A stretch of DNA of 34,267 bases from Sulfitobacter sp. (lineage in GTDB: Bacteria; Pseudomonadota; Alphaproteobacteria; Rhodobacterales; Rhodobacteraceae): contig JBFFQZ010000001.1 in NCBI GenBank assembly GCA_041573235.1, forward strand, positions 1 to 34,267. Direction: 5' to 3'. Each line of letters starts with the position of its first letter. The first letter of the stretch is position 1. The notes below the pieces were generated by a model, which worked only from the letters and a program-made list of their open reading frames with translations, did not search any database and had not been told where the DNA came from. Below are positions 11,940-31,550 of the stretch, in pieces. A program made the position numbers and the translations under genes.

Positions 11940-11970
11940 AAAAAATGGCCGACCTGAAAAGGTCGGCCAT
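11940..11970 (-). terminator. Rho-independent terminator downstream of phyR
   Basis: Perfect 11-bp stem ATGGCCGACCT-GAAA-AGGTCGGCCAT (11945-11970) flanked by an A-run giving a U-tract on the minus strand. Confidence 0.85.
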
Positions 11971-12051
11971 TCATGTCGCTTGCGTCCCTCGGCACGGATT
12001 GCGCCGTTGTTCTCGCGCCGGGCCTCTGGGGTCCGCTTTCCTGACCTGATC

Positions 12052-12861: not shown

Positions 12862-12889
12862 CCGTACGAGTCCTTTTCTTAAACTTCAT

Positions 12890-12915
12890 GGAACCAAACA
12901 CCAAACCGTCGCGTT
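12890..12915 (+). promoter_or_regulatory. EcfG (ECF15)-type promoter for nepR-ecfG-kinase
   Basis: GGAAC(12890-12894)-N17-CGTT(12912-12915), the established ECF15 consensus. Confidence 0.88.
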
Positions 12916-12922
12916 TGGTTCC
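12897..12922 (-). promoter_or_regulatory. EcfG-type promoter for phyR, overlapping the divergent one
   Basis: Minus strand GGAAC(12922-12918)-N17-TGTT(12900-12897). Confidence 0.8.
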
Positions 12923-12969
12923 GAAACACGGTACAACTTTTCGAAAATAAATATGTGGTCAAAAGACGT

Positions 12970-13128
12970 ATGACGGATCAAGGGCAGAAGAAAGCACGCG
13001 AAGGGGTGATCGACGAGAATCTCCGCCGCGTGTTTGATGAAGCGATGGAAGAAGGCATTCCTGACCGCTTCAAGGATTTGTTGGCGCAGCTGAAAAAGCA
13101 GGACCAAGAGCGGGGGAAAAGTGGATGA
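12970..13128 (+). CDS. nepR: Anti-sigma factor NepR (52 aa)
   Basis: Not in ORF track. MTDQGQKKAREGVIDENLRRVFDEAMEEGIPDRFKDLLAQLKKQDQERGKSG; I..NLR.VF....EE.IPDRF.DLL..L is the NepR core; ATGA overlap with ecfG. Confidence 0.93.
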   Translation: MTDQGQKKAREGVIDENLRRVFDEAMEEGIPDRFKDLLAQLKKQDQERGKSG

Positions 13129-13682
13129 GCGATCAGGATCCGCGCGATGAGCTGGTTGAACACCTTCCGGCAATGCGCGCGTTCGCGATCTCTTTGACGC
13201 GAAACGGCTCCGTCGCGGATGACATGGTTCAGGATACGCTCGTGAAGGCCTGGACCAACATCGACAAATTTGAGCCGGGCACCAACATGCGCGCCTGGCT
13301 GTTCACGATCCTGCGCAATACCTACTATTCGTCACGTCGCAAAACCAACCGCGAGGTGTCCGACGTCGATGGTGTGTTCACCGATAACCTGGCCGAGAAA
13401 CCGGCCCATGACGGGCACTTGCAGATGCAGGATTTCCGCGCGGCCCTTGCCAAGCTCAACGTCGAGCAGCGCGAGGCGCTGTTGCTGATCGGGGCGTCGG
13501 GTTTTTCCTATGAAGAAGCCGCCGAGATGTGCGGCGTTGCCGTCGGCACGATCAAAAGCCGCACCAATCGTGCCCGGGCACAACTGGCAAAGCTGATGGG
13601 CCTGAAAGAAGATGAGGCGATGGAGATGACGGACGACGCCACGATGTCCGTGATCTCGGCATCGAAAATCTCAAGCTTTTAA
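13125..13682 (+). CDS. ecfG: ECF15 sigma factor EcfG (SigT/RpoE2-like)
   Basis: ADDMVQDTLVKAW, GTNMRAWLFTILRN, SYEEAAEMCGVAVGTIKSR; synteny with phyR/nepR. Confidence 0.95.
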   Translation: MSDQDPRDELVEHLPAMRAFAISLTRNGSVADDMVQDTLVKAWTNIDKFEPGTNMRAWLFTILRNTYYSSRRKTNREVSDVDGVFTDNLAEKPAHDGHLQMQDFRAALAKLNVEQREALLLIGASGFSYEEAAEMCGVAVGTIKSRTNRARAQLAKLMGLKEDEAMEMTDDATMSVISASKISSF

Positions 13683-13684
13683 TC

Positions 13685-15657: not shown

Positions 15658-16218
15658 TCAGAATACCGGTGGCGTCAGCGCGCTGACGATCTCGCACGGA
15701 GCATCGCCGATGTTGCGGAACCGGTGCGGCTGGCGGCTGTCAAAGAGATATCCGTCTCCCGGACTCAGGATCGCGATGGCGTCGCCAACCGTCAGCTCGA
15801 TCTGACCGCGCGTGATGATTCCCGCTTCTTCTCCCTCGTGGGCCAGGAATTCCGGGCCGGTGTCCGCACCGGGCGGATAGGTCTCGTGAAGGACCTGTAA
15901 ATTGTGCGCGCGCGCGTTGCCCAATTGTCGCAGCGACACCCCCTGAGGCCCCTGCGGGGCAAGCTCGGTGAACTCGCTCGCCTTATAGAAGATCTTTGGC
16001 GTGTCGGGGTCTTCGATGGTTGCGAAAAACTCGGCCATGGAGATGGGTATCGCGTCCAGCAAGCTTTTGAGAGAGGCGACTGACGGGCTGGTTTTATCGG
16101 TTTCGATCAGAGAGATCGTGCCGTTTGTCAGTCCCGCGCGACTGGCGAGTTCGCGCTGTGACAGGCCACGCTCGGTACGGATCTGTTTGAGGCGTTGTCC
16201 AATGTCCAATAGATGCAT
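15658..16218 (-). CDS. XRE-HTH plus cupin transcriptional regulator (PuuR/PauR-like)
   Basis: IGQRLKQIR..RGLSQRELASRAGLTNGTISLIE....SPSVASL; HEGEEAG and FDSRQPHRFRN cupin motifs; divergent from gabT. Start uncertain. Confidence 0.9.
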   Translation of the reverse strand: MHLLDIGQRLKQIRTERGLSQRELASRAGLTNGTISLIETDKTSPSVASLKSLLDAIPISMAEFFATIEDPDTPKIFYKASEFTELAPQGPQGVSLRQLGNARAHNLQVLHETYPPGADTGPEFLAHEGEEAGIITRGQIELTVGDAIAILSPGDGYLFDSRQPHRFRNIGDAPCEIVSALTPPVF

Positions 16219-16321
16219 CCTGATGCGGTAGCGCATGGCCCGGTTTAGCGGGCTTCGACGGCGGTGTCTTGCCGAGATGACCACTGCGCGAAAATTTTTT
16301 CAAGCGCTCTCATAATGCTGA

Positions 16322-16360
16322 TTGACAATTAAATTAAACAGGAAGAATGGTTTTTTAAAC
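16322..16360 (+). promoter_or_regulatory. AT-rich gabT promoter/operator region
   Basis: Perfect TTGACA at 16322-16327; TTAAAC repeated at 16334 and 16355 (21-nt period); -10 element unclear. Confidence 0.45.
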
Positions 16361-16406
16361 GCGGCACGATGCGCGTTTGATTTCTTACATTGATGGAGTC
16401 TGCCCC

Positions 16407-17792
16407 ATGGCCAGCACTGCAAAACGCGCAACCCGCAAGGGTGCAAAGACAGCCCCGAAAATGTCGATCGTCGAACCTGCGACGCCCAAGACCTATACGA
16501 ACGCCGAATTGCTGACGCGCCGTGAGGCGGCTGTCCCGCGCGGTGTGGCATCGGCGGCTCCGGCTGTTTTCGCGGCCCATGCTGAAAACGCGGAACTGTG
16601 GGACGTGGACGGAAAGCGTTATATCGATTTCGTCGGCGGCATTGGCGTGCTGAACACCGGCCACCGTCATCCCAGCGTCATCGCTGCTGCGAAAGCGCAG
16701 GAAGACCTGTACACGCATACCTCGTTTCAGGTTGTCCCATACGCCCCTTACATCGAACTGGCAGAGCGGCTGAATGAGCTGGCCCCCGGTGACGCGCCCA
16801 AGAAAACGCTTCTGGTCACCACAGGTGCCGAAGCCGTTGAAAATGCGGTGAAAATCGCGCGTGCTGCGACGGGTCGTCCAGGCGTGATCGCCTTTACCGG
16901 TGGTTATCACGGCCGCACGCTGCTGACGCTTGGCATGACTGGCAAGGTCTCTCCTTACAAAAAGAACGTCGGACCTTTCCCGGCGGATATCTTCCGGGCG
17001 CCGTTTCCGTCCCTGCGCGACGGGATCACCGTCGAGGACGCGATCACTGGCCTGCAAAACCTGTTCCTGACCGATGCGCAGCCCGACCGCGTGGCGGCGA
17101 TCATCATCGAGCCGGTGCTGGGTGAAGGTGGTTATGTCCCCGTTCCGACAGAGATGATGCAGGCCCTGCGCGAGATTTGCGACCAGTACGGCATCCTGCT
17201 GATTGCTGATGAAGTGCAGGCAGGCTTTGGCCGGACGGGCACATGGTTCGCGATCGAACATTCCGGCGTGGTTCCGGATCTGATCACCGTGGCGAAATCC
17301 ATGGCCGGCGGCTACCCGTTGGCCGGCGTGATCGGGCGGTCGGACGTCATGGATGCGATGGAACCCGGTGGACTTGGCGGCACCTATGGCGGCAACCCCG
17401 TCGCCTGCGCCGCAGCCCTCGCGGCCATCGACGCGATCGAGGACGAAGAGCTGCTGTCTCGGTCCACTGCAATGGGCGACAAGCTGAAGGCGCGCTTTGC
17501 CGAGATCGGTGCGCGGGCTGCGCCCTACCGGATGTGGGACATTCGCGGCATCGGCGCTATGGTCGCAGTCGAATTCGTCACCGATTTCGAAAGCGCGGCA
17601 CCGGATACGGCCCTTACCAAGCGTGTCATCGCACATGCGCTTGAGCGCGGTCTGCTTCTGCTGAGCTGCGGCATGCACGGCAACTCCGTGCGCGTGATGG
17701 TCCCGCTGACCGCCTCGGACGAGATCGTGGACGAAGGTCTTGCCATCTTTGAAGAAGCGCTGGTTGCCGCAGTCGCCGAGGGTGTGCTGTAA
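16407..17792 (+). CDS. gabT: 4-aminobutyrate--2-oxoglutarate aminotransferase (class III PLP)
   Basis: AVPRGV, YIDFVGGIGVLNTGH, TTGAEAVENAVKIAR, YHGRT, IADEVQAGFGRTG, AKS, GGTYGGNP; RBS GGAG before ATG 16407. Confidence 0.92.
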   Translation: MASTAKRATRKGAKTAPKMSIVEPATPKTYTNAELLTRREAAVPRGVASAAPAVFAAHAENAELWDVDGKRYIDFVGGIGVLNTGHRHPSVIAAAKAQEDLYTHTSFQVVPYAPYIELAERLNELAPGDAPKKTLLVTTGAEAVENAVKIARAATGRPGVIAFTGGYHGRTLLTLGMTGKVSPYKKNVGPFPADIFRAPFPSLRDGITVEDAITGLQNLFLTDAQPDRVAAIIIEPVLGEGGYVPVPTEMMQALREICDQYGILLIADEVQAGFGRTGTWFAIEHSGVVPDLITVAKSMAGGYPLAGVIGRSDVMDAMEPGGLGGTYGGNPVACAAALAAIDAIEDEELLSRSTAMGDKLKARFAEIGARAAPYRMWDIRGIGAMVAVEFVTDFESAAPDTALTKRVIAHALERGLLLLSCGMHGNSVRVMVPLTASDEIVDEGLAIFEEALVAAVAEGVL

Positions 17793-19631: not shown

Positions 19632-19837
19632 GAAAAGCTCCACTATTGGTGCGGAATGGGAGGTCCTGTCGGTTAGAGCGTATTCCCGCGCCTCTTGGCA
19701 AGGCTTTCGGGATCGGCGTTCGGGGTGACGGAAAAACTGCGGCGCTTCCGAACTGCACTGAATTTCAGCACAGTTGCATCAGTAATACGCTGAATTAAAT
19801 GAGTTTTATACATTCAGCCCGGCGCGGGAGAGATTGC

Positions 19838-19866: not shown

Positions 19867-20036
19867 ACCTTGAGATCCTGGCGGGCCGCACTTTGGCGGC
19901 GATGAAACCGGGACGGGAGGTACTGTAATACGGATGGTGGTCTGCGGCATGCGGACCATACAGTCGTACCGCCTCCCAGCGAAAACAAGCGACAGCGCAG
20001 CGCGCTGTACGTGACATAAAAATGGGAGATACCAAC

Positions 20037-21008
20037 ATGAAGATGTTCAAGTCCATGACGGTTGCAGGCGCCTTTGCCGGTGCCGTGCTGGCCAGCACGG
20101 CGTCCTTCGCGCAAGAGAAGTTCATCACCATCGGCACTGGCGGTCAGACCGGCGTTTACTTTGTCGTGGGGCAGTCGATCTGCCGTCTCGTGAACCGCGG
20201 TTCCGCCGAGCACGGGTTGAAGTGCACCGCGCCATCCACCGGTGGTTCCATTGCAAACATCAACGCAATCAGGGCTGGCGATATGGACATGGGCGTGGCC
20301 CAGTCCGACTGGCAGTATCACGCATATAACGGCACCTCGAAGTTCGAGGGCGATAAGTTCGACAATCTGCGCGCGGTCTTCTCCGTGCACGGCGAGCCGT
20401 TCAACGTGATCGCGCGCAAGGATAGCGGCATCAAGACGTTCGATGACCTCAAGGGCAAACGCGTGAACATCGGCAACCCCGGTTCCGGTCAGCGCGCCAC
20501 CATGGAAGTCGTGATGAACGCCAAGGGCTGGACGCTGGACGATTTTGCCCTGGCGTCAGAGCTGAAGCCGGCCGAGCAGGCCGCGGCGCTGGGCGACAAC
20601 AAGGTGGATGCGATCATCTACACCGTGGGCCACCCGAATGGCTCCATCCAGGAAGCCGTGTCGACCATCGACGCAGAGCTAGTGTCGGTCGAGGGTCCTG
20701 AAATCCAGGGTCTGATCGACAACAATCCGTTCTACGCCAGCGCGACAGTGCCCGGCGGTATGTACAAAGGCACCGACAGCGATGTGAGCACCTTCGGCGT
20801 GAAGGCGACCTTCGTGACGTCTGCGGATGTGGCCGAGGATGTGGTCTATGAGACCGTGAAGGCCGTGTTCGAAAACTTTGACCGGTTCAAGCGTCTGCAT
20901 CCTGCATTCGAGAACCTCAAGGAAGAAGACATGATCTCTGCCGGTCTTTCGGCGCCGCTGCACGATGGCGCTGCAAAGTACTACAAAGAGCGTGGCTGGA
21001 TCGAGTAA
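20037..21008 (+). CDS. TAXI-family TRAP transporter solute-binding protein
   Basis: Signal peptide; ITIGTGGQTGVYF, STGGSIANIN, AQSD, DLKGKRVNIGNPGSGQR, PLHDGAAKYYKE; RBS GGGAG before ATG 20037. Confidence 0.95.
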   Translation: MKMFKSMTVAGAFAGAVLASTASFAQEKFITIGTGGQTGVYFVVGQSICRLVNRGSAEHGLKCTAPSTGGSIANINAIRAGDMDMGVAQSDWQYHAYNGTSKFEGDKFDNLRAVFSVHGEPFNVIARKDSGIKTFDDLKGKRVNIGNPGSGQRATMEVVMNAKGWTLDDFALASELKPAEQAAALGDNKVDAIIYTVGHPNGSIQEAVSTIDAELVSVEGPEIQGLIDNNPFYASATVPGGMYKGTDSDVSTFGVKATFVTSADVAEDVVYETVKAVFENFDRFKRLHPAFENLKEEDMISAGLSAPLHDGAAKYYKERGWIE

Positions 21009-21032
21009 ATCCCGATCATCTGAAGAAACCAA

Positions 21033-21059
21033 TGCGGCGGGTCAGGGTGGCCCGTCGCA
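21033..21059 (+). other. Intercistronic stem-loop without U-tract (probable mRNA stabiliser/attenuator)
   Basis: TGCGGCGGGTCA-GGG-TGGCCCGTCGCA, 12-bp stem with two G-U pairs between binding-protein and permease genes. Confidence 0.55.
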
Positions 21060-21131
21060 CCGCAGGCCTCCGGCAGCTGCCGGGCGCCGCGCCCGTGCCG
21101 GGGCGGGCAGGGTTTGAACGGGGGGAATGCA

Positions 21132-23882
21132 ATGACAGAAGCTGACCAACAAAAAGCCGCCGCCGTCGAGGCGGAAGCCGCCGGGCGCGGGGGCTTGAGC
21201 CAGAACGAGCTTGATGAGCTTGTCGCCTCTTCCGACACAGGAGGGCGCTCGGTCGCCGGGCCTGTCGGGCTTCTGCTGATGCTGGTGGCGCTGGCCTGGT
21301 CTCTGTTCCAGCTCTACATCGCGTCGCCCTTCGGTCTGTTCAACGATACGCTTGCGCGGTCCATTCACCTTGGGTTCGCGGTCTTTCTGGGCATTCTTGC
21401 CTTTCCCGCTGCGCGCACGACCTTCCAGCTTGCCCTTGGCATCGTGGTGCCTTTGGCGTTGGCGGCCCTGTTCATGGTGGCGGCCAAGGATGGCGTTGCC
21501 GTGTGGTGGATCCCGATCCCCGCGGTTCTGGTGGCTGCAACCGTCGTGCTGGGCTCGCCCAAGACATCCGTCCCGGTCTGGGAGTGGGTGCTGGCAATCG
21601 CGGGCGCCGGAGCGGCGCTCTATCTTTTCATGTTCTACCGCGACATCGCGGACCGCGTTGGCGCGCCGATCACTCAGGACTATGTCGTCGCGGTCATCGG
21701 CATCACGATCCTTCTGGAGGCCACGCGCCGCGCGCTTGGCCCCGCGCTGATGATCGTGGCGTCCGTTTTCCTGCTCTACACCGTGATGGGCCCCTCGATG
21801 CCCAGCATCATCGCGCACAAGGGCAACAGCCTGAGCGAGATCGTCAATCACCAGTGGATCACGACCGAAGGCGTGTTCGGCATTGCCCTTGGCGTATCCA
21901 CGTCATTCGTTTTCCTGTTCGTGCTGTTCGGGTCGCTTCTGGATCGGGCCGGGGCGGGCAATTATTTCATCCAGGTCGCGTTCAGCCTGATGGGCCACAT
22001 GAAAGGCGGGCCTGCAAAGGCCGCAGTCGTGTCCTCGGCCATGACCGGCCTGATCTCGGGCTCTTCGATCGCCAACGTGGTGACCACCGGCACTTTCACG
22101 ATCCCGCTGATGAAGAAGGTCGGCTTCAGTTCTGAAAAGGCCGGCGCGGTCGAGGTTGCGTCATCGGTCAATGGCCAGATCATGCCACCGGTGATGGGGG
22201 CCGCGGCCTTTCTGATGGTCGAATATGTCGGGATTCCCTATCCCGATGTGGTCAAACACGCGCTGCTGCCTGCTGCGATCTCCTATATCGCGCTGGTGTA
22301 CATCGTGCACCTTGAAGCGCTCAAGGCCGGGATGGAGGGCCTGCCCCGTCCCGTTGCGCCCAAGCCCTGGGTGGCATGGCTGATGTCTCTGGCGTTCACC
22401 GTGGCGGCGATCTGCCTGCTGAGCTACCTGGTCTATTTCTTCATGGGCTGGATCCGTCCGGCCTTCCCCGAGACGGCAGGCTACGTGGTCTTTGTCATGC
22501 TGACGGTGGTCTATGCGGGGTTGTTGTTCATCGCATCGCGTGAGGCGCCGCTCAAGCTTGACGATCCGAATGCGCCGGTGACCAAATTGCCGCTGCCGGG
22601 GCCGACAGTGCGGTCGGGTCTGCATTTCATCCTGCCGATCGTGGTGCTGGTCTGGGCGCTGATGGTGGACCGGCTGTCTCCGGGTCTGTCGGCTTTCTGG
22701 GCGACGGCCTACATGATCTTCATTCTGGTGACACAGCGTCCGCTGATGGCGATCTACCGCGGTGAAAGCCGCCTGGCGTCTGACATCAAGGATGGGTTCC
22801 TGGATCTGATCGACGGCCTGGTGACGGGTGCGCGCAACATGATCGGCATCGGCATCGCCACGGCGACGGCGGGGATTATCGTCGGCGCGGTCAGCCAGAC
22901 AGGCGTGGGCGCGGCCCTTGCCGATGTGGTCGAGGTGCTGTCAGGTGGCAACATCCTGGCGATTCTCGCGCTGACCGCGGTGCTGTCGCTGATCCTCGGG
23001 ATGGGTTTGCCGACGACGGCGAACTACATCGTGGTGTCGGCATTGCTGGCGCCCGTGATCGTGACGCTGGGCCAGCAGAACGGGCTGATCGTGCCACTGA
23101 TCGCCGTGCATCTCTTCGTTTTCTACTTCGGCATCATGGCGGACGTGACGCCGCCTGTGGGGCTTGCCTCCTTTGCGGCAGCGGCGGTATCGGGCGGCGA
23201 TCCGATCAAGACGGGCGTCGTAGCGTTCTTTTACTCGCTGCGCACGGCGGCCCTGCCGTTCCTGTTCATCTTCAACACCGAATTGTTGCTGATCAACGTG
23301 ACCTGGGCGCAGGGGATATTCGTCTTTGTCATTGCGACCGTCGCGATGCTGCTCTTTGCGGCGGCGACGCAGGGCTGGTTCCTTGCCAAGAACCGCTTGT
23401 ACGAGACGGTCGCGCTGTTGCTCATCGCGTTCACCCTGTTCCGTCCCGGATTCTGGATGGACATGGTGTCGCCCCCCTATGCCGAGCAGGCTCCGACCGA
23501 GATCGCCGCGGCAGCGGCCGACACGCCGGTGGGTACGCCTTTGCGCGTACGTGTGGCCGGGACGGACAGCTTTGGCGATCCGATCGAATTCGTCGCACTG
23601 GTCGAGATGGGCGAGGGCGCCACCGGCGAGGAAAAGCTGGAGAACGCAGGGCTGCTGTTCCGCCAGGATGGCGACAAGATGATCATCGACGACGTCGGCT
23701 TCAACTCTCCCGCGGCGAATGCCGGGCTGGATTGGGATCAGGAGGTGCTGCGGGTGCTCAAACCCGTGCCACAGCCATCCAAATACCTGATGTTCATCCC
23801 GGCGCTGTTGCTGCTTGCCGCGGTGGCAATGCTGCAACGCGGGCGCAATGCGCGTGCCCCGCGCAAGACGGCGGCTGCCTGA
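21132..23882 (+). CDS. TAXI TRAP transporter fused permease (DctQM-like)
   Basis: Highly hydrophobic; GGPAKAAV, SGSSIANV, GQIMPPVMGAAAF, LGMGLPTTANY, ADVTPPVGLA motifs; C-terminal soluble extension. Confidence 0.95.
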   Translation: MTEADQQKAAAVEAEAAGRGGLSQNELDELVASSDTGGRSVAGPVGLLLMLVALAWSLFQLYIASPFGLFNDTLARSIHLGFAVFLGILAFPAARTTFQLALGIVVPLALAALFMVAAKDGVAVWWIPIPAVLVAATVVLGSPKTSVPVWEWVLAIAGAGAALYLFMFYRDIADRVGAPITQDYVVAVIGITILLEATRRALGPALMIVASVFLLYTVMGPSMPSIIAHKGNSLSEIVNHQWITTEGVFGIALGVSTSFVFLFVLFGSLLDRAGAGNYFIQVAFSLMGHMKGGPAKAAVVSSAMTGLISGSSIANVVTTGTFTIPLMKKVGFSSEKAGAVEVASSVNGQIMPPVMGAAAFLMVEYVGIPYPDVVKHALLPAAISYIALVYIVHLEALKAGMEGLPRPVAPKPWVAWLMSLAFTVAAICLLSYLVYFFMGWIRPAFPETAGYVVFVMLTVVYAGLLFIASREAPLKLDDPNAPVTKLPLPGPTVRSGLHFILPIVVLVWALMVDRLSPGLSAFWATAYMIFILVTQRPLMAIYRGESRLASDIKDGFLDLIDGLVTGARNMIGIGIATATAGIIVGAVSQTGVGAALADVVEVLSGGNILAILALTAVLSLILGMGLPTTANYIVVSALLAPVIVTLGQQNGLIVPLIAVHLFVFYFGIMADVTPPVGLASFAAAAVSGGDPIKTGVVAFFYSLRTAALPFLFIFNTELLLINVTWAQGIFVFVIATVAMLLFAAATQGWFLAKNRLYETVALLLIAFTLFRPGFWMDMVSPPYAEQAPTEIAAAAADTPVGTPLRVRVAGTDSFGDPIEFVALVEMGEGATGEEKLENAGLLFRQDGDKMIIDDVGFNSPAANAGLDWDQEVLRVLKPVPQPSKYLMFIPALLLLAAVAMLQRGRNARAPRKTAAA

Positions 23883-24020
23883 TATCGCCCGCGCGAGGAT
23901 GTCATACCCGCTATGCCGCGCCGCTGGAATACGGATGCGTTTGGCCTGTTTTACTCTGTCTCCAAAGGGCGTATGGAACGGTATAAACGGCCTGTGCCGT
24001 ATGTCCCGGAGTGAGCAGAT

Positions 24021-25142
24021 ATGACCCCTTTCGCAATCGCCGGCGTACAAATGTACGTCAATGCCCTGCAACCGAACGTCGATGGAATGATCCAGCGCCT
24101 CAACATCCTGATGGCACGGTTCCCCTGGACGCAGATGGTGCTTTTTTCCGAGTTGGCGCCCTTTGGCCCGCTCGACCGATACTCTCTGCCGCCCGAAAAC
24201 GACGCGCTTGAGCAGTTTCAGGCGGCGGCCGCACGGCACCGCGTGTGGCTGATTCCCGGATCGATGTTCATCACGGATCCCGAGGACGGGCGGATCTACA
24301 ACACCTCCGTCGTGATCAACCCCGAGGGAGAGATCATCCGGCGCTATTCCAAGATGTTCCCGTTCCGGCCGTACGAATCGGGCATCGCAGCAGGAACCGA
24401 TTTCTGTGTTTTCGATGTGCCGGACGTGGGCCGGTTCGGCCTGTCCATCTGCTATGATATGTGGTTCCCGGAAACCACGCGTCAGTTGACGTCGCAGGGC
24501 GTCGAGGTGCTGTTGCACCCGGTGCTGACCGGCACGACGGACCGTGACGCGGAACTGGCCATCGCGCGCGCCACGGCGGCTCAGTTCCAGTGCTATGTGA
24601 TTGACGTGAACGGGCTGGGGGCCGGCGGTGTGGGTAAGTCCTGCGTTGTCGATCCGACATCCATGGTGCTGCACCAATCGGCGGGGCAGGAAGACATGTT
24701 CCCGATCGAAGTCGACCTGGACATGGTGCGCCGCCAACGCGAGACGGGGATGAAGGGACTTGGACAGGTTCTGAAATCGTTCCGCGACCGGTCCACCGAT
24801 TTCTCGGTCTATGACCGGACCAGCGGTACCGACAGCTATCTCAAGACACTTGGCCCGCTTGCCATTCCGCACCAGGGGACGACTGCGGGGCTTGACGACG
24901 CTTCGCCCGCGATGCGCGTGCCGCAGGCGCCCTACCACGCCGGTCAGGACAGCATGCCGGGTTTTGCCCACAAGGTCCCGCCGGAGTTTGCACCGGAACC
25001 ATTGCCCAACCCTTCCGCCGGGACGGCCACGCCGCCCAGCGAAACCGGGTCTGCCGCGGCTCCTGCCGCCGGCATGCCTAACCCACCTGTTAAACCCGGC
25101 GCCCTGACCGGCACCACAACGAACGAGACATCCAGCGGCTAG
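24021..25142 (+). CDS. Carbon-nitrogen hydrolase (nitrilase/amidase superfamily) with Pro/Ala-rich C-terminal tail
   Basis: Glu-Lys-Cys triad contexts LFSEL, YSKMFP, GLSICYDMWFPE; RBS GGAG. Confidence 0.92.
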   Translation: MTPFAIAGVQMYVNALQPNVDGMIQRLNILMARFPWTQMVLFSELAPFGPLDRYSLPPENDALEQFQAAAARHRVWLIPGSMFITDPEDGRIYNTSVVINPEGEIIRRYSKMFPFRPYESGIAAGTDFCVFDVPDVGRFGLSICYDMWFPETTRQLTSQGVEVLLHPVLTGTTDRDAELAIARATAAQFQCYVIDVNGLGAGGVGKSCVVDPTSMVLHQSAGQEDMFPIEVDLDMVRRQRETGMKGLGQVLKSFRDRSTDFSVYDRTSGTDSYLKTLGPLAIPHQGTTAGLDDASPAMRVPQAPYHAGQDSMPGFAHKVPPEFAPEPLPNPSAGTATPPSETGSAAAPAAGMPNPPVKPGALTGTTTNETSSG

Positions 25143-25227
25143 GCCCGCGTTGTTACGGGGCAGGTCAGCGTACCTGCCCTTGTCCGCATCGCAATGGCCC
25201 GGCTGCGCATTACGCGGAGAACGACCG

Positions 25228-27978
25228 ATGCATTCGATGAGAGACTATTCGTCAGCGATCCAGCTGCGATCTGACAGGTGGAGTGCCCTGCGCGAAGCGA
25301 CAAGCGCCCTGACCCGTGGCCCCAGCGCGGGAGAGACAGCGCAACTTCGACAGACTGTCGAGAAGTTGCTGGAATCCCTCGGCACGATGGAGCCTTACTG
25401 GGCATTCCCGGGGATGCATGCCTTCAACCTGATGCGGCGGCATTTTGAGCATGGCAAGCTTGACGATCTGAGCTTTGCGGTAAACCGGGTGACCCGCGCG
25501 CTGACCACCGGCGCCTATCGCCGCCGCTCGATCCCGCTGGAGCGCGACAGCCTCGATCAGGAAGAACAGGATGATGACGCACATCACTCGCCCGAGATGC
25601 GCGCGCACATCAAACCCTACTTCGAAGTGCTGATCGTCGATAGCGTCAACGAGCATCAGGAACGTTGGCTGAAAAGCAATGTGACGTCGATGCGCCGCCC
25701 CGAAGATCAATTCGTTTACGAGGCTGTCGTGGTCCCGTCGATCGAGGATGCTCTGATCGCCGTTCTGTTCAATCACAACATTCAGGCCATCGTGGTGCGG
25801 CCCGGACTGGTGCTGGAATCCGAAAGGGCCGAAGAGATCCTGACCCGCTATCTGGCCCGTGCGGGCGGTCGCGAAGAGATCGACGCGATCGCGCCTGAGA
25901 ACTATGGCCCCGAGCTGTGCCGGATGATCGCCAAGGTCCGCCCCGAATTGGACGCCTATCTGGTCACCGAACGCTCCGTCGAGGATATCGCGGGCCTTGA
26001 TCTGGGGATCTGTCGGCGGGTGTTTTACAATTCCGAAGATTTCATGGAGTTGCACCTGAACATCCTGCGCGGGGTTCAGGCCCGCAACAAGTCACCGTTC
26101 TTCACGGCGCTGGTCGAATATTCCAAGCAGCCGACGGGTGTATTCCACGCGATGCCGATCAGTCGCGGCAAATCCATCACCCGCTCGCACTGGATCCAGG
26201 ACATGGGTGCGTTTTACGGGCCCAATATCTTCCTGGCCGAAACCTCCGCCACGTCAGGCGGTCTGGACAGCCTGCTCGAGCCGCATGGCCCGATCAAGGA
26301 AGCGCAGGAACTGGCCGCACGGGCGTTTGGATCGAAACAGACCTTCTTTGCCACCAACGGCACCTCAACCTGCAACAAGATCGTCGTGCAGGCGCTGCTG
26401 CGGCCGGGTGACATCGTTCTGGTCGACCGCGATTGCCACAAATCGCACCACTACGGCATGGTGCTTGCCGGGGCGCATGTGAGCTATCTCGACAGCTATC
26501 CGCTGAGCAAATATTCGATGTACGGCGCGGTGCCGTTGTCGGAGATGAAAGAGCGGCTGCTCGAGCTCAAGGCGCAGGGAAAGCTGGACCGCGTGCGGAT
26601 GCTTCTCCTGACCAACTGCACCTTCGACGGGTTGGTCTACAACGTCGAGCGGGTCATGGAGGAATGCCTGGCGATCAAGCCTGATCTGATCTTCCTGTGG
26701 GACGAAGCCTGGTTCGCCTTCGCGCGTTTCAACCCGACCTATCGTCAGCGTACGGCGATGAACGCCGCGAACGTGCTGCGCGCGCGGTTCAAGACGGAGG
26801 CCCATGCAGCGGCCTATGCCGCCCAGCAGGAGACTCTGAAAGACGCGGACCACGAAACGCTGATGAAGACCCGCCTTATCCCGCCGCCGACGGCGCGGGT
26901 ACGCACCTATTCGACCCAATCGACACACAAGACGCTGACGTCCCTGCGACAGGGGTCGATGATCCACGTCAACGATCAGGACTTCAAGGGCGAGGTCGAA
27001 CAGTCGTTCCACGAAGCCTACATGACCCACACATCCACCTCGCCGAACTATCAGATCATTGCGTCGCTCGACGTGGGGCGTCGACAGGTTGAACTGGAAG
27101 GGTTCGAGTTCGTGCAGCGCCAGATCGAGGCCGCGATGTCCATGCGTCGCGCGCTTAGTGACCATCCGCTGCTACGCAAGTATTTCAAGGTACTGACCGC
27201 CGGCGACATGATCCCCGAGCAGCACCGCGAAAGCGGCGTGACCAGCTATTACGATGCCGAACAGGGCTGGACCGACATGTGGGACTGCTGGGAGCGCGAT
27301 GAATTCGTTCTGGATGCAAGCCGCGTGACGCTGCTGGTCGGTGGGACCGGTTGGGACGGAGACACCTTCAAGAACAAGGTCTTGATGGACAAATACGGTA
27401 TCCAGATCAACAAGACTTCGCGCAATACCGTCCTGTTCATGACCAATATCGGCACGACGCGGTCCTCTGTGGCCTATCTGATCGAAGTGCTGGTCGAAAT
27501 CGCCAAGTCGCTGGACGAATTGAACGATGACGCCTCGGGCATGGAAAAGCTCGGCTTTGACCGGCGGGTTCACAACCTGCTGGAAAATTGCCCGCCGTTG
27601 CCGGACTTCAGCCGCTTTCACAAGGCGTTCCTCGAAAGTGGCAACAGCCATGAGGGCGACATTCGCAAGGCGTTCTTCCTAGCCTATGACGAAAAGAATT
27701 GTGACTATCTCGAGCTTAACGGCTCGCTCAAGGAAGCGATGGACCGCGGCGAGACGGTTGTCTCGGCCAGTTTCATCATCCCCTATCCACCTGGCTTTCC
27801 CATCCTTGTCCCCGGACAGGTGGTCAGCCAGGAAATCCTGAGTTTCATGCGCGCACTCGATGTGAGCGAAATCCACGGGTATCGGCCGGATCTCGGCCTG
27901 AGGGTATTCACCCAAGAGGCGCTTGAGGGAGTGGGCGCCATTCCGAAAAAAACATCAAAAAAAGCTTCAGCTAAATAG
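25228..27978 (+). CDS. Large PLP-dependent amino-acid decarboxylase, Orn/Lys/Arg decarboxylase fold (916 aa)
   Basis: LDSLLEPHGPIKEAQ, FATNGTSTCNKIV, VDRDCHKSHH, TNCTFDG, WDEAW, QSTHKT (PLP lysine), HTSTSP.YQIIASLD, PYPPGFPILVPG; RBS GGAG before ATG 25228. Confidence 0.93.
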   Translation: MHSMRDYSSAIQLRSDRWSALREATSALTRGPSAGETAQLRQTVEKLLESLGTMEPYWAFPGMHAFNLMRRHFEHGKLDDLSFAVNRVTRALTTGAYRRRSIPLERDSLDQEEQDDDAHHSPEMRAHIKPYFEVLIVDSVNEHQERWLKSNVTSMRRPEDQFVYEAVVVPSIEDALIAVLFNHNIQAIVVRPGLVLESERAEEILTRYLARAGGREEIDAIAPENYGPELCRMIAKVRPELDAYLVTERSVEDIAGLDLGICRRVFYNSEDFMELHLNILRGVQARNKSPFFTALVEYSKQPTGVFHAMPISRGKSITRSHWIQDMGAFYGPNIFLAETSATSGGLDSLLEPHGPIKEAQELAARAFGSKQTFFATNGTSTCNKIVVQALLRPGDIVLVDRDCHKSHHYGMVLAGAHVSYLDSYPLSKYSMYGAVPLSEMKERLLELKAQGKLDRVRMLLLTNCTFDGLVYNVERVMEECLAIKPDLIFLWDEAWFAFARFNPTYRQRTAMNAANVLRARFKTEAHAAAYAAQQETLKDADHETLMKTRLIPPPTARVRTYSTQSTHKTLTSLRQGSMIHVNDQDFKGEVEQSFHEAYMTHTSTSPNYQIIASLDVGRRQVELEGFEFVQRQIEAAMSMRRALSDHPLLRKYFKVLTAGDMIPEQHRESGVTSYYDAEQGWTDMWDCWERDEFVLDASRVTLLVGGTGWDGDTFKNKVLMDKYGIQINKTSRNTVLFMTNIGTTRSSVAYLIEVLVEIAKSLDELNDDASGMEKLGFDRRVHNLLENCPPLPDFSRFHKAFLESGNSHEGDIRKAFFLAYDEKNCDYLELNGSLKEAMDRGETVVSASFIIPYPPGFPILVPGQVVSQEILSFMRALDVSEIHGYRPDLGLRVFTQEALEGVGAIPKKTSKKASAK

Positions 27979-27995
27979 AATAAAAGGAGCATATC

Positions 27996-29453
27996 ATGGC
28001 TACCGTTCTTAGGAATATCTCTGAAATCCGTCGGTTCTTTCACCGAAACGAGGACCCGATCTATTTCATCTCTGCGACCAACTTCAACCTGTTGGGGCTT
28101 GATGAATGGGTGAAGAATTTCAAATACATCTGCTATATCGACTGCTACGGCGGCAAGCATCCGAACGTGTTCTGCCCGTCCGAGCAGCCGCACGCGGAAT
28201 TCCAGTCGATCGAGGACATCAACAACTACCTGCTGCAACACAAGGAAGTCATCGACTTCATCAAGAAGCGCGGTGGGAAGCCCAAGTTCGTGTTTCTGAT
28301 GTTCGATGAGGAAACAGAGCGTCTGTCCAAGGAGCTGGGTGCCGAAGTCTGGTTCCCGAAGGCCAAGCTGCGCAGCGCGATGGACAACAAGATCGAAACC
28401 GTGCGCATCGGCAACAAGGCAGGCGTGCCGTCGGTGCCCAATACGCTGGCCGAGGTGACCTCCTACGAGAACCTGCGCGAGACCTGCGAAGCGGCGGGCA
28501 TCGGACATGACCTGGTGCTGCAGTCGGCGTTCGGCGATTCCGGTCACACCACGTTCTTCATCAAGAACGAGGCCGATTTCCGCCGCCATCAGAGCGAAAT
28601 CATCGGTGAAGGTGAGATCAAGATCATGAAGCGCATCAATTGCCGCGGAGCGGCGATCGAGGCTTGCGCGACCAGGGAAGGCACCATCGTTGGCCCGCTG
28701 ATGACCGAACTGGTAGGCTTCAACGAACTTACACCCTATCGCGGGGGCTGGTGCGGCAACGAGATCCTCGCAACGGCCTTCCCGCCGAAGGTGCGTCAAC
28801 AGGCGCGCGACCTGACCTTCAAGTTCGGTGAACAGCTGCGCAAGGAAGGCTATCGCGGTTATTTCGAGCTGGATTTCCTGATCGACAAGAAGACCGGCGA
28901 TCTGTGGCTGGGGGAGCTGAATCCGCGCATCACGGGCGCGTCTTCGATGACCAACCACGCGGCTTTTGCCCATGCGGATGCGCCCCTCTTCCTGTTCCAC
29001 CTGCTTGAGTTCTCGAAGAAGAAATTCAATCTTGACGTGGATGAGCTGAACGCGCGTTGGGCGGACCCGGCAAACATTGATGGTTGGTCGCAGATGGTGA
29101 TCAAGCACACCAAGGACAGCGTCGATATCTGTACCGAAAGCCCCGAAACCGGCATCTACAAGATGAAAGAGGACGGATCGGTCGTGTTCGACCGCTTCGA
29201 CTATCACCGCCGCGCGGTGGAAAGCGAGAACGAAGCGTTCTTCCTGAGGATCCTACAGCCGGGCGATTACCGCTATGAAGGTGCCGATATCGGCATCCTC
29301 GTGACGCGCGGACGGTCGATGACGAAGGCTTTCCAGTTGAATGAACGTGCGAAAAAGTGGATTCATGGAATCAAGCGTGCGGTCGACGGTAAACCTCTGC
29401 CGGTCGCGCAAGCTGCTCCGGATCTTGCTGATCCGGCGTTCAAGATCATGTAA
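27996..29453 (+). CDS. Stand-alone ATP-grasp ligase of unknown specificity (485 aa)
   Basis: DNKIETVRI..KAGVPSVP, LVLQSAFGDSGHTTFFI loop, RGYFELDFLID...LWLGELNPRITG (E-x-N-P-R); RBS AAAGGAG; no BCCP or carboxyltransferase nearby. Confidence 0.85.
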   Translation: MATVLRNISEIRRFFHRNEDPIYFISATNFNLLGLDEWVKNFKYICYIDCYGGKHPNVFCPSEQPHAEFQSIEDINNYLLQHKEVIDFIKKRGGKPKFVFLMFDEETERLSKELGAEVWFPKAKLRSAMDNKIETVRIGNKAGVPSVPNTLAEVTSYENLRETCEAAGIGHDLVLQSAFGDSGHTTFFIKNEADFRRHQSEIIGEGEIKIMKRINCRGAAIEACATREGTIVGPLMTELVGFNELTPYRGGWCGNEILATAFPPKVRQQARDLTFKFGEQLRKEGYRGYFELDFLIDKKTGDLWLGELNPRITGASSMTNHAAFAHADAPLFLFHLLEFSKKKFNLDVDELNARWADPANIDGWSQMVIKHTKDSVDICTESPETGIYKMKEDGSVVFDRFDYHRRAVESENEAFFLRILQPGDYRYEGADIGILVTRGRSMTKAFQLNERAKKWIHGIKRAVDGKPLPVAQAAPDLADPAFKIM

Positions 29454-29478
29454 CACAAGTCTTTCAGAAAGGCCGCCC

Positions 29479-30450
29479 ATGTACTGGCGCGCGATCTCAG
29501 AGGACTTGCCCGGCCCCAAGTGGGCCGGGCTTTTCCGTGAATATTGGTCCGACTATCGGGCATGGTGGCTCAAGGAAGGCGAGACCGCCCGCCCGACCTA
29601 TGCCGAAAGTCGAAGGGCATTGGCCCTGCATATGCCCGAGATCGTCGATCTCTATGATGAGCTTTGCGAATTGGCCGGTGGCGGCGATCACGCGGCGCGG
29701 TTCCTCAGCTTTTACACCCCTCCGCCCTACCTTGCCGGGTGCAGCCAGGCCATCTGGGCGGGCAAGCAGCCGGTGATGGTGCGCAACTATGACTATAACC
29801 CCAAGGCGTTCGACAGCCTGGTGCTGCGCACCCGATGGCAGGGTCGCACGGTGATGGGCACCTCTGACGGGCTTTGGGGACTGGTCGATGGCATCAATGA
29901 CAAGGGGTTGTCGATCTCGCTGACCTTCGGGGGGCGGCGGATTGTCGGCGAAGGCTTTGGCGTACCGCTGATCCTGCGCTACGTGTTGCAGACCTGCGAA
30001 ACGGCAGCGCAGGCCGGAGAGGTCCTGGCCCGCATCCCCACCCACATGAGCTATAACGTGACGGTCCTGGACCGGCAGCGGAATTACCTGACGGTGATGA
30101 TGGCCCCGGACCGTCCTGCGCTGGTGACCCATGCGGCAGTGGCGACGAATCATCAGGAGAACGTGGAATGGGTCAGTCACGCGCGTTTCACCGCCACCGT
30201 TGAACGCGAGCGTTTCCTGTTGCAGCGCCTGCGCCTGCACCGCGACCCGGAGGAGAAATTCATCAACGCGTTTCTGAAGCCACCGCTGTATTCCACCGCG
30301 TTCGCCCACGGGTTCGGAACGCTTTATACTGCCGTCTACAGGCCCCGGAAAAAAGAGATGGAGCTGCGGTGGCCCGATGTGGTCTGGTCGCTGTCGATGA
30401 ACGAATTCGTGGAAGGCGCGCGGTATGTGGCGCTGCCGGGAGTGCCGTGA
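29479..30450 (+). CDS. C45-family Ntn-hydrolase/acyltransferase (autoproteolytic), 323 aa
   Basis: AG|CSQ putative autocleavage site (Cys88), VRNYDY, DGINDKGL, ATNH; start reassigned to ATG 29479 (MYWRAISE). Confidence 0.85.
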   Translation: MYWRAISEDLPGPKWAGLFREYWSDYRAWWLKEGETARPTYAESRRALALHMPEIVDLYDELCELAGGGDHAARFLSFYTPPPYLAGCSQAIWAGKQPVMVRNYDYNPKAFDSLVLRTRWQGRTVMGTSDGLWGLVDGINDKGLSISLTFGGRRIVGEGFGVPLILRYVLQTCETAAQAGEVLARIPTHMSYNVTVLDRQRNYLTVMMAPDRPALVTHAAVATNHQENVEWVSHARFTATVERERFLLQRLRLHRDPEEKFINAFLKPPLYSTAFAHGFGTLYTAVYRPRKKEMELRWPDVVWSLSMNEFVEGARYVALPGVP

Positions 30451-31550
30451 TGGGACCATTGGCATCGTTGAAAGTGGTCGAGTTTTCGGGCCTTGGGCCA
30501 GCACCGCTCGCGGGGCAACTGCTGGCGGATCTGGGTGCGGAGGTGATCACCGTGGACCGCAAGGCCGCACCTGCGGACCCCACCGACATCAACCGGCGCG
30601 GCAAGCGGTCGGTCGTGCTCGATCTCAAGGATCCGCGTGCGATTGAGGCGGCACGGCGACTGATCGCGGCCAGTGACGTGCTGATCGAAGGGTTTCGGCC
30701 TGGCGTGATGGAACGTCTGGGCCTCGGGCCCGCCGACTGTCCCGAAAGGTTGATCTATGCGCGGATGACCGGCTGGGGGCAGGAAGGGCCCTTGGCCCAG
30801 ACCGCTGGGCACGACATCAACTACCTTGCGCTGACCGGCGCGCTGCATGCGATGGGCGACGCCGACAGACCCCCGGTGCCGCCGCTGAACCTCGTGGCGG
30901 ATTACGGCGGCGGCACGATGTTCCTGCTGCTGGGCATCCTGTCGGCGGTAATCGAACGCGGGGTCTCTGGAAAGGGACAGGTCGTGGACGCGGCGATGGT
31001 CGACGGCGTGCCCGCGATGATGGGGTTGATTCATGCCATGCTGGCGCGCGGACAGTGGCGCGAAACACGGGCCAGCAACTGGCTTGACGGGGCGGCGCCG
31101 TTCTACCGATGCTACCGCTGCGCCTGCGGCGGGTTCATTTCGGTCGGCGCGCTGGAGCCGCAGTTCCACGCGCTGTTGCTGGAAAAAGCGGGCTTGCCGC
31201 AGGACCACCAGAAAACCCAGAACGACGCGACGACATGGCCTGACCGTGCCGCGCTCTATGCCAAGGCATTCGGTTCCCGCAGCCGCGACGACTGGGCCGC
31301 CGTGTTCGAAGGCACCGACGCCTGCGTGGCCCCCGTGCTGACGTTTTCAGAGGCGCGGTTTCATCCGCACATGGCCGCACGGCAGACGTTCGTCGCACCG
31401 GGCGGCATCCAGCAGGCCGCACCCGCACCACGTTTCAGCCGTACGGCACCGGGCACGCCGCAGGCCCCCGCCGCAATCGGCGGAGATACGCGCGCGGTGC
31501 TCGAAAGCCTTGGATACCCAGGCGGCTCACTTGATACTCTGCCGTCTTAG
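30450..31550 (+). CDS. CaiB/BaiF class III CoA-transferase (alpha-methylacyl-CoA racemase-like)
   Basis: GLGPAP..LADLGAEV, RGKRSVVLDLK, EGFRPGVMERLGLG, AGHDINY, NLVADYGGG, VDAAMVDG; TGATG overlap with the C45 gene. Confidence 0.93.
   Translation: MGPLASLKVVEFSGLGPAPLAGQLLADLGAEVITVDRKAAPADPTDINRRGKRSVVLDLKDPRAIEAARRLIAASDVLIEGFRPGVMERLGLGPADCPERLIYARMTGWGQEGPLAQTAGHDINYLALTGALHAMGDADRPPVPPLNLVADYGGGTMFLLLGILSAVIERGVSGKGQVVDAAMVDGVPAMMGLIHAMLARGQWRETRASNWLDGAAPFYRCYRCACGGFISVGALEPQFHALLLEKAGLPQDHQKTQNDATTWPDRAALYAKAFGSRSRDDWAAVFEGTDACVAPVLTFSEARFHPHMAARQTFVAPGGIQQAAPAPRFSRTAPGTPQAPAAIGGDTRAVLESLGYPGGSLDTLPS

What the first reader, a model, noticed from the sequence alone, without database searches (positions are those of the whole stretch)
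24021..30450. Candidate undescribed metabolite pathway: amidase + giant PLP decarboxylase + orphan ATP-grasp ligase + C45 Ntn-hydrolase
Seen: four co-oriented genes with gaps of 85, 17 and 25 nt, each with intact catalytic motifs (E-K-C triad; STHK PLP lysine; ELNPR; G|C autocleavage). Established: Orn/Lys/Arg-fold decarboxylases make amines, ATP-grasp enzymes activate carboxylates via acyl-phosphate to form amide/ester bonds, and C45 Ntn enzymes and nitrilase-family amidases cleave or transfer acyl groups. Inference: this is a make/conjugate/release module for a small amino-acid-derived molecule, not acid resistance (no amino acid/amine antiporter) and not fatty-acid carboxylation (no BCCP or carboxyltransferase). 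From memory only, and unverified here, the decarboxylase and ligase resemble M. tuberculosis Rv2531c and Rv1722, which are unlinked in that genome and which I recall being reported as a glutamate decarboxylase and a GABA-conjugating (GABA-trehalose) ligase. If right, this operon physically links the pair in an alphaproteobacterium and nominates the C45 enzyme and amidase as the recycling steps.
Basis: partly seen in the sequence, partly recalled or inferred. Interest (0 to 1): 0.9.

Follow-up and report, generated by a model that had tools for sequence, protein, structure and literature searches.

The report
GABA operon with nylon-like amide cycle
This conserved four-gene bacterial operon likely turns glutamate into GABA, likely uses ATP to park the GABA in an amide bond (probably on a lysine of the ligase's own tail or on another GABA rather than on the sugar trehalose) and likely cuts it free again, which would be an undescribed branch of GABA metabolism and a candidate natural job for nylon-degrading enzymes.

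Summary
The four genes, their gaps (85/17/25 nt) and their motifs are real. The decarboxylase is a full-length orthologue of M. tuberculosis Rv2531c (E 2e-246) and keeps its glutamate-specificity residues, so it most likely makes GABA. The ligase belongs to NF005096 and is not a biotin carboxylase; I could not retrieve Rv1722, so that link stays indirect. Ligase, amidase and C45 co-occur almost perfectly (the same 25 of 150 genomes). The decarboxylase is optional: elsewhere it pairs with an antiporter instead. Trehalose is an unlikely general acceptor, since 21 of 35 ligase-bearing genomes lack OtsA, TreY and TreS. Two results point to amide chemistry. A lysine sits near the ligase's disordered C-terminus across phyla. 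In actinobacterial-type loci a homologue of the nylon-dimer hydrolase NylB replaces the amidase (55 of 61). Best model: ATP-driven parking of GABA as an omega-aminoacyl amide, released by two hydrolases to GabT/SSADH. The acceptor is inferred, not shown. This scan noted the operon before on other genomes (at least 8 earlier notes); my paper searches found no description of it.

The parts
24021..25142 (+). Nitrilase-family (carbon-nitrogen hydrolase) amidase, 373 aa; catalytic core about residues 1-290; its own clade, which occurs only with the ligase in the family sample
   Evidence: Pfam CN_hydrolase E 8e-30; far below every named NCBIfam subfamily cut-off; triad invariant in 99/99; same 25 of 150 genomes as the ligase
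25228..27978 (+). Long-form Orn/Lys/Arg-fold PLP decarboxylase, orthologue of Rv2531c, predicted L-glutamate decarboxylase, 916 aa
   Evidence: phmmer 823 bits over residues 13-903 to PDB 9N0N, against 205 bits for the next entry; K405/K568/R574/T604/N728 = Rv K406/K570/R576/T606/N731, kept in 107/107 loci
27996..29453 (+). ATP-grasp ligase of family NF005096/PRK06524 (labelled 'biotin carboxylase'), 485 aa, predicted GABA-activating ligase
   Evidence: 756 bits against a cut-off of 684; true biotin carboxylase models give 32 bits or less against cut-offs near 600 or higher; AF2 pLDDT 91.5, ATP-grasp fold with Z about 22 shared by urea carboxylase, PylC, PurK and BesA
29409..29450 (+). Disordered C-terminal tail of the ligase (residues 472-485) with the conserved Lys483 (codon 29442-29444)
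   Evidence: pLDDT below 50; Lys third from the end in 101/106 loci and 120/120 close homologues; Lys within the last four residues in 102/120 and 95/120 of two actinobacterial-type sets with different flanks
29479..30450 (+). C45-family autoproteolytic Ntn hydrolase/acyltransferase, 323 aa, nucleophile Cys88
   Evidence: NF040521 184 bits against a cut-off of 85; model matches isopenicillin N acyltransferase 2X1C, E 4e-12, TM 0.67
20022..23882 (+). TAXI-type TRAP transporter (binding protein 20022-21008, fused permease 21114-23882); accessory, candidate glutamate importer
   Evidence: TIGR02122 above cut-off; permease homologue present in 48 of 80 related loci; the ligand is inferred
15658..17792 (.). 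PuuR-like regulator (15658-16284, -) and GABA aminotransferase GabT (16404-17792, +); accessory, GABA catabolism
   Evidence: TIGR00700 533 bits against a cut-off of 507; lies next to the amidase when the TAXI genes are absent, e.g. L015, L028, L047

Best explanation
The decarboxylase likely converts L-glutamate to GABA, the ATP-grasp ligase likely activates GABA's carboxyl group and joins it in an amide bond to an amine acceptor, probably the epsilon-amine of Lys483 on its own flexible tail and/or the free amine of another GABA, and the C45 enzyme and the amidase likely hydrolyse these omega-aminoacyl amides to hand GABA back to GabT and SSADH. The module would be a retention route for surplus GABA (carbon and nitrogen kept in the cell), used where other bacteria pair the same decarboxylase with an exporting antiporter. 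Shown: gene content, families, catalytic residues, co-occurrence, tail lysine, substitute partners. Inferred from characterised relatives: Glu to GABA, and GABA activation. Inferred only: the acceptor, the amide linkage and the division of labour between the two hydrolases.
For: (1) Rv2531c orthology, with the proposed gamma-carboxylate-binding Arg kept in 107/107 loci while lysine decarboxylases have Ser there. (2) The ligase sits beside several different routes to or from omega-amino acids: this decarboxylase; gabD-gabT in Chondrinema; an arginine-to-guanidinobutyrate gene set; gabT/davT with a glutarate CoA-transferase; gabT with an aldehyde dehydrogenase, or a copper amine oxidase with one, in actinobacterial-type loci. 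(3) Ligase, amidase and C45 occupy the same 25 of 150 genomes, C45 one more through a paralogue. (4) In 6 of 6 fetched ligase-less genomes the decarboxylase is followed by an AspT-type antiporter; no ligase-bearing locus held at that point had one. (5) In actinobacterial-type loci a full-length homologue of 6-aminohexanoate-dimer hydrolase NylB (E 3e-73) follows the ligase within 500 nt in 55 of 61 loci. (6) The tail lysine is kept with unrelated flanking residues and at varying distance from the terminus, which suits a chemical role better than a docking motif; the 5 proteobacterial tail-less ligases all lack the amidase, in at least two separate lineages. (7) Tan, a relative of the C45 prototype, hydrolyses beta-alanyl amides (PMC1285064). 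(8) Rv1722 and Rv2531 are both listed as acquired by the ancestor of slow-growing mycobacteria (PMC3087520).
Against: The only characterised presumed relative, Rv1722, makes an ester with trehalose, not an amide, and its orthology to this ligase was not tested directly. Esterase activity of NylB-type enzymes is recalled, and the closest C45 paralogues sit beside PHB depolymerase, so both hydrolase types could act on esters. The tail-amidase link is not universal: actinobacterial-type ligases keep the lysine but have this amidase clade in 0 of 80 loci, and tail-less ones (L155-L168 group) still keep the NylB-like gene. The Chondrinema operon has an APC permease that could be an antiporter. The AF2 model leaves the tail unplaced. 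The loci are mostly close kin and include some duplicated genomes.
Confidence: 0.5

Rival explanations
1. GabtS-like ester store: the ligase esterifies GABA to whatever abundant sugar or polyol the cell holds (trehalose, glucosylglycerol or an imported sugar), the C45 enzyme cleaves the ester, and the tail lysine has a lesser role.
For: Direct precedent: Rv1722 makes 6'-GABA-trehalose, proposed as an alternative to excretion (bioRxiv 10.64898/2026.04.15.718621). C45 paralogues at 43-46% identity lie in PHB-depolymerase operons. The window's genome has a glucosylglycerol-phosphate-synthase-like gene.
Against: 21 of 35 ligase-bearing genomes, including the complete same-genus G132, have no OtsA/GgpS-like, TreY or TreS match; PF00982 is not enriched (10/25 against 33/125, p 0.22). 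No sugar gene is a conserved neighbour. It does not explain the nitrilase-family amidase or the tail lysine. TreP, TreT and sugar uptake were not tested.
Confidence: 0.25
2. Catabolic scavenging: ligase, C45 and amidase form an ATP-dependent route that funnels an imported omega-amino-acid derivative (amide, lactam or N-acyl form of GABA or 5-aminovalerate) into GabT/DavT; the decarboxylase is only co-located.
For: Three genomes have the trio without any decarboxylase, in contexts with TRAP/ABC importers, gabT/davT, a glutarate CoA-transferase, an acyl-CoA dehydrogenase or a flavin amine oxidase.
Against: No activation step is known to be needed before GabT (established knowledge); 22 of 25 family genomes keep the decarboxylase fixed inside the operon; the characterised presumed relative is biosynthetic.
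Confidence: 0.12
3. Tethered decarboxylation, as in butirosin: the ligase loads glutamate through its side-chain carboxyl onto the tail lysine, the decarboxylase acts on the tethered glutamate, and the hydrolases release GABA.
For: Precedent BtrJ/BtrK on a carrier protein (PMC11350588); Rv2531c has a very high K0.5 of about 509 mM for free glutamate; decarboxylase and ligase are adjacent in most loci.
Against: 7 of 18 decarboxylase-bearing genomes lack the ligase, and the 6 examined use an antiporter instead; the trio exists without the decarboxylase; the active-site residues are the same in both contexts; Rv1722 uses GABA.
Confidence: 0.09
4. Annotation at face value: a Lys/Orn/Arg decarboxylase for polyamines or acid resistance beside a biotin carboxylase subunit.
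For: Pfam OKR_DC_1 hit; database label 'biotin carboxylase'; biotin carboxylases are the nearest solved sequences.
Against: Scores to Lys/Arg/Orn decarboxylase models are 109-212 bits against cut-offs of 794-1310; to real biotin carboxylases 32 bits or less; Arg at the glutamate-specific position; no antiporter; Ala315 stands where the biotin carboxylase catalytic base is recalled to be.
Confidence: 0.04

Closest known systems
Rv2531c, long-form glutamate decarboxylase of M. tuberculosis (PDB 9N0N/9N0O/9N0P; PMC13506015, PMC12329521)
   Same: Full-length homology, same length class, PLP lysine and 4 of 5 named substrate residues identical
   Different: Here it lies in an operon with a ligase and two hydrolases; R718 is Lys; term searches of both papers found no gene-neighbourhood discussion
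GabtS (Rv1722), GABA-trehalose synthetase (bioRxiv 10.64898/2026.04.15.718621)
   Same: ATP-grasp enzyme annotated as a biotin carboxylase; tied to GABA; co-acquired with Rv2531 in mycobacteria (PMC3087520)
   Different: Orthology not tested directly; trehalose synthesis is missing from most carriers here; the preprint calls the product unique to mycobacteria and its breakdown unknown, whereas this family spans several phyla and travels with hydrolases
Ebony/Tan cycle of insects (Tan related to isopenicillin N acyltransferase; PMC1285064)
   Same: Works like it: an omega-amino acid is conjugated as an amide and released by a C45-type Ntn hydrolase
   Different: Ebony is an NRPS-like enzyme acting on beta-alanine and biogenic amines (recalled); here an ATP-grasp ligase, GABA and a second hydrolase
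NylB 6-aminohexanoate-dimer hydrolase (PDB 1WYB, 3VWM and others)
   Same: Homologues are the fixed downstream partner of this ligase family in actinobacterial-type loci
   Different: Not part of this operon, where the nitrilase-family amidase and C45 stand in its place; known from man-made nylon oligomers
Butirosin BtrI/BtrJ/BtrK (PMC11350588)
   Same: A ligase plus a PLP decarboxylase give a GABA unit
   Different: Uses a separate acyl carrier protein and a thioester; no such gene lies between the four genes here
Decarboxylase/antiporter systems (GadBC, AspD-AspT type)
   Same: The same decarboxylase family pairs with an AspT-type antiporter in ligase-less genomes
   Different: This operon has no such antiporter and has the ligase-hydrolase trio instead

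Membership tests
Rv2531c-type long glutamate decarboxylases | Full-length homology including the extra N-terminal domain (about 900-950 aa) | tested here: met
   823 bits, residues 13-903 against 25-905 of 9N0N
Rv2531c-type long glutamate decarboxylases | K406, PLP lysine K570, R576, T606, N731 | tested here: met
   K405, K568, R574, T604, N728; 107/107 loci
Rv2531c-type long glutamate decarboxylases | R718 | tested here: inconclusive
   Lys715 here; Lys in 105 and Arg in 2 of 107
Rv2531c-type long glutamate decarboxylases | Glutamate-specific, Mg-dependent activity | not testable with these tools
   needs an assay
Lys/Orn/Arg decarboxylases (LdcI, AdiA, SpeC/F) | Curated model cut-offs; Ser at the R576 position | tested here: not met
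   109-212 bits against 794-1310; Ser in H. alvei LdcI and 6Q6I, Arg here
GabtS (Rv1722) | Sequence orthology to Rv1722 | tested here: inconclusive
   No mycobacterial record returned; actinobacterial homologues are 49-51% identical and pass NF005096; Rv1722's membership of PRK06524 is recalled only
GabtS (Rv1722) | Host makes trehalose, the acceptor | tested here: not met
   21 of 35 carriers have no OtsA/GgpS-like, TreY or TreS match; the window's genome (73% complete) has only a GgpS-like fragment; TreP, TreT and uptake not tested
GabtS (Rv1722) | ATP-dependent GABA-O-trehalose formation | not testable with these tools
   needs an assay
Biotin carboxylase | Curated model cut-offs and the catalytic Glu after the ExNxR motif | tested here: not met
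   32 bits or less against about 600-1100; Ala315 at that position (position of the Glu recalled, motif register)
Biotin carboxylase | Linked BCCP and carboxyltransferase genes | tested here: inconclusive
   None among the annotated or Pfam-scanned neighbours; not searched systematically
Peptidase C45 (Ntn) | NF040521 cut-off, internal nucleophile Cys, IAT fold | tested here: met
Nitrilase superfamily | Glu-Lys-Cys triad | tested here: met
   99/99
Named nitrilase-family amidases (Nit1, AguB, AmiE/AmiF) | Curated model cut-offs | tested here: not met
   66 bits or less against 355-500
Decarboxylase/antiporter acid-resistance or energy modules | Adjacent amino acid/amine antiporter | tested here: not met
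   No AspT homologue in the window's genome or in ligase loci; other antiporter families not searched genome-wide
Carrier-tethered GABA synthesis (BtrIJK) | Separate acyl carrier protein | tested here: not met
   Gaps of 17-85 nt leave no room for a carrier gene in the operon; the tail could serve in cis, which is untested

The most novel reading that the evidence does not exclude
The ligase is a self-priming polyamide synthetase: it acylates its own tail lysine with GABA and extends the chain on each new terminal amine, making natural oligo-GABA (nylon-4; nylon-5-like in the 5-aminovalerate clade) as a carbon and nitrogen store. C45 trims the chain and the amidase clears the last GABA-lysine bond. 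NylB-type 'nylonases' are the natural depolymerising partners of this pathway in Actinomycetota, and GABA-trehalose is a derived form in lineages that lost the tail.
Probability: 0.2. Interest if true: 0.95.

Novelty: new variant of a known kind. Interest (0 to 1): 0.74.

Why it matters
The GabtS preprint names the breakdown route of the GABA conjugate as an open question and treats the chemistry as mycobacterial. This operon shows the ligase family is widespread (25 of 150 genera sampled in this family, plus Bacteroidota, Gamma- and Betaproteobacteria and Actinomycetota) and names the candidate releasing enzymes in harmless marine bacteria that are easy to work with. It corrects two database labels ('biotin carboxylase', 'ornithine/arginine decarboxylase'). 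It suggests a choice between exporting GABA through an antiporter and retaining it by ligation. The tight link to NylB homologues gives a directly testable idea for the natural substrate of nylon-oligomer hydrolases.

Tried and rejected
Rv1722 sequence: not among the control genomes (one search shows M. tuberculosis does not ring with PF01276), nor among cluster names or the top 120 hits of two actinobacterial queries; 'PRK06524' and 'biotin carboxylase-like protein' gave no papers. General-stress (EcfG) promoter: a loose match lies upstream of the amidase in the window, but only 2 of 86 upstream regions match loosely (about 1 expected) and 0 strictly; rejected. Promoter/terminator scan at chance level. 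The CoA-transferase overlapping the C45 stop codon (30450-31550) follows in only 9 of 80 loci and is not part of the module. The group II decarboxylase beside 14 of 61 actinobacterial-type ligases is not shown to be GadB (no NCBIfam hit at 1e-40), so it is not used as evidence. No canonical GadB in 5 genomes tested; SSADH in 5 of 5. Sequence search of the C45 protein against the PDB gave nothing and the profile only weak hits. The Atlas gave only 'putative biotin carboxylase' clusters. The ligase tree is the quick version; the careful search timed out. RNA run shares were 0.15-0.23, from one study, and are not used for habitat or expression level. L027 was dropped from the C45 alignment because of stops in the given frame. 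Supplements of the bioRxiv preprint are closed; its Table S1 and the unidentified network nodes may bear on homologue range and on oligo-GABA species.
Full report
Observation. The four ORFs are present at the stated coordinates with gaps of 85, 17 and 25 nt and ordinary codon composition. Families: carbon-nitrogen hydrolase, OKR_DC_1 decarboxylase, NF005096 and C45. Upstream lie a TAXI-TRAP transporter, an FMN-binding glutamate synthase-like gene, gabT and a PuuR-like regulator. The window's genome is a 73%-complete assembly; its nearest named relatives are Sulfitobacter.

Decarboxylase. It matches Rv2531c over its whole length (823 bits; next PDB entry 205). In PMC13506015 (parts 1-3 of 7 read) Rv2531c is a Mg-dependent glutamate decarboxylase with K0.5 about 509 mM, and K406, T606, R576, R718 and N731 are named as substrate residues. 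Here these are K405, T604, R574, K715 and N728. All but R718 are invariant in 107 of 107 loci (close kin and some duplicate genomes included), while lysine decarboxylases have Ser at the R576 site. Term searches of this paper and of PMC12329521 (passages only) found no neighbourhood analysis.

Ligase. It passes NF005096 and fails every real biotin carboxylase model. The AF2 model (pLDDT 91.5) has an ATP-grasp fold at 9-16% identity to solved enzymes, with urea carboxylase, PylC, pyruvate carboxylase, PurK and BesA tied near Z 22; residues 472-485 are disordered. The preprint 10.64898/2026.04.15.718621 (parts 1, 5, 6, 7 of 7 and passages read; supplements closed) shows that Rv1722, annotated as a biotin carboxylase, joins GABA to trehalose with ATP, that breakdown is unknown, and it surveys only mycobacteria. 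I could not obtain the Rv1722 sequence, so the link rests on the shared annotation, on recall, and on PMC3087520 (passages), which lists both Rv1722 and Rv2531 as acquired by the ancestor of slow-growing mycobacteria.

Co-conservation. In 80 GTDB loci the C45 gene is found in 80, the decarboxylase in 79 and the amidase in 78, always in the same order; the misses are short contigs. In a sample of 150 family genomes, one per genus, the ligase and the amidase occur in the same 25, C45 in these plus one genome with a paralogue, and the decarboxylase in 22, all among the 25. In 400 phylum genomes the ligase occurs in 11 and the decarboxylase in 18; all 11 have both. The genes stay together when reordered in other classes (L104-L107) and in Bacteroidota, where gabD and gabT lead the operon. 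The core is therefore ligase plus hydrolases. Three genomes have the trio and no decarboxylase, beside gabT/davT with glutarate catabolism or a flavin amine oxidase. One plasmid places ligase and C45 inside an arginine-to-guanidinobutyrate gene set, with the decarboxylase far away on the same replicon. Of the 7 genomes with the decarboxylase but no ligase I fetched 6, and in all 6 an AspT-type antiporter follows it; no ligase-bearing locus had one. An APC permease in the Chondrinema operon is a possible exception.

Acceptor. Of 35 ligase-bearing genomes, 13 match the OtsA model loosely, 4 TreY and 3 TreS; 21 have none. About half of the 13 share the score pattern of the window genome's own hit, which is GgpS-like, so probably about 7 make trehalose. 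PF00982 is not enriched among carriers. An earlier scan note (e1-4113202) pointed to a tail lysine, which I tested. It is third from the end in 101 of 106 loci; 98 of these have the amidase and 3 are cut contigs; the 5 tail-less ligases all lack the amidase, also in their replicon or genome apart from one weak partial hit. The three rhizobial tail-less copies nest inside a tail-bearing clade in a quick tree. In two actinobacterial-type sets a lysine lies within the last four residues in 102 and 95 of 120 proteins, against about 10-14% expected from lysine frequency, with unrelated flanks. In 80 metagenome loci of that type this amidase clade is absent (0), C45 is present in 8 and the decarboxylase in 8. 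There a serine hydrolase follows the ligase within 500 nt in 55 of 61 loci with enough DNA; the copy tested is a full-length homologue of 6-aminohexanoate-dimer hydrolase NylB (E 3e-73), which PMC10858056 groups among nylon-hydrolysing serine hydrolases (passages). Against a strict tail model: these loci keep the tail without this amidase, and tail-less ones keep the NylB-like gene.

Hydrolases. The C45 protein has invariant Cys88 and the isopenicillin N acyltransferase fold. Tan, a relative of that enzyme, cleaves beta-alanyl amides (PMC1285064, passages). Its nearest paralogues lie with PHB depolymerase, which leaves esters open. The amidase has an intact triad but fits no named subfamily; that the nitrilase superfamily includes biotinidase, which cleaves an acyl-epsilon-lysine bond, is recalled.

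Mechanism. Most likely (0.5): glutamate to GABA, ATP-dependent ligation of GABA into an omega-aminoacyl amide on the tail lysine and/or another GABA, release by C45 and the amidase, then GabT and SSADH (gabT in the window; SSADH in 5 of 5 genomes). Rivals: a sugar or polyol ester as in GabtS (0.25), catabolic scavenging (0.12), butirosin-like tethered decarboxylation (0.09; PMC11350588 passages), face-value annotation (0.04).

Expression. RNA-run contigs from one seawater study touch all four genes, and one spans 29382-29555 across the ligase/C45 gap. Contigs show neither strand nor a single transcript.

Novelty. Two components have characterised or presumed relatives from 2025-2026. Searches for the operon or its term combinations found no paper, nor a link between NylB and an ATP-grasp or GABA partner, nor a natural GABA polyamide, in the listings (titles and abstracts only; subscription journals are not covered). 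The scan itself has noted the operon on at least 8 other genomes; these notes are leads, not support. I class it as a new variant of a known kind, interest 0.74, with a 20% chance of the bolder reading, a natural self-primed nylon-4-like store with NylB-type enzymes as its native hydrolases.

Noticed in passing
L137:4267-6914, L138, L139, L142, L143 (G468, G405, G542, G450, G540): Stand-alone C45 paralogues (43-46% identical to the operon's C45) form a conserved three-gene unit with a ribbon-helix-helix regulator (PF17723) and a PHB depolymerase (PF10503); a C45 enzyme in polyester breakdown is not something I know of.
   Followed up: partly
L144-L149: Rv2531c-type decarboxylase followed directly by an AspT-type antiporter (PF06826) in ligase-less genomes, some with a second AspT and a class I/II PLP enzyme: a likely Glu/GABA exchange module.
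   Followed up: partly
L193:7073-11149 and 55 of 61 loci among L152-L231: Actinobacterial-type ligase followed by a NylB homologue, in 14 of 61 also by a group II PLP decarboxylase of unknown specificity.
   Followed up: partly
L083, L084, L087 (Sinorhizobium and Rhizobium plasmids): Tail-less ligase with decarboxylase and C45 but no amidase, beside a glutamate dehydrogenase-family gene; in L084 the C45 gene is cut short by an IS30 element and fix-type electron-transfer genes follow.
   Followed up: partly
L113, L115, L116, L117: A second ligase clade (44-48% identity) with C45 and amidase but no adjacent decarboxylase, in 5-aminovalerate/glutarate-like or amine-oxidase contexts; G506 carries both clades.
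   Followed up: partly
L021:10482-11783 and about 20 other loci: A class III aminotransferase of family PRK07483 often follows the C45 gene directly; its substrate is unknown.
   Followed up: no
window 9951-15406: From the translations, a PhyR/ECF-sigma/histidine-kinase general stress locus with a Crp/Fnr-type gene and a YihY-like membrane protein (labels recalled, not scanned); no conserved promoter link to the operon.
   Followed up: partly
window 23945-24020: Many homologous amidase leaders share a GGCGTA element about 70 nt upstream and an inverted repeat ending at the ribosome-binding site (seen by eye); possibly a promoter element and a leader hairpin.
   Followed up: no
window 18006-19643 (-): FMN-binding glutamate synthase family protein between gabT and the TAXI genes; present in only 4 of 80 related loci.
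   Followed up: no
window 357-9649: Peptide ABC transporter genes around a histone-deacetylase-family hydrolase (3914-5095) and an M20 peptidase (8372-9649).
   Followed up: no
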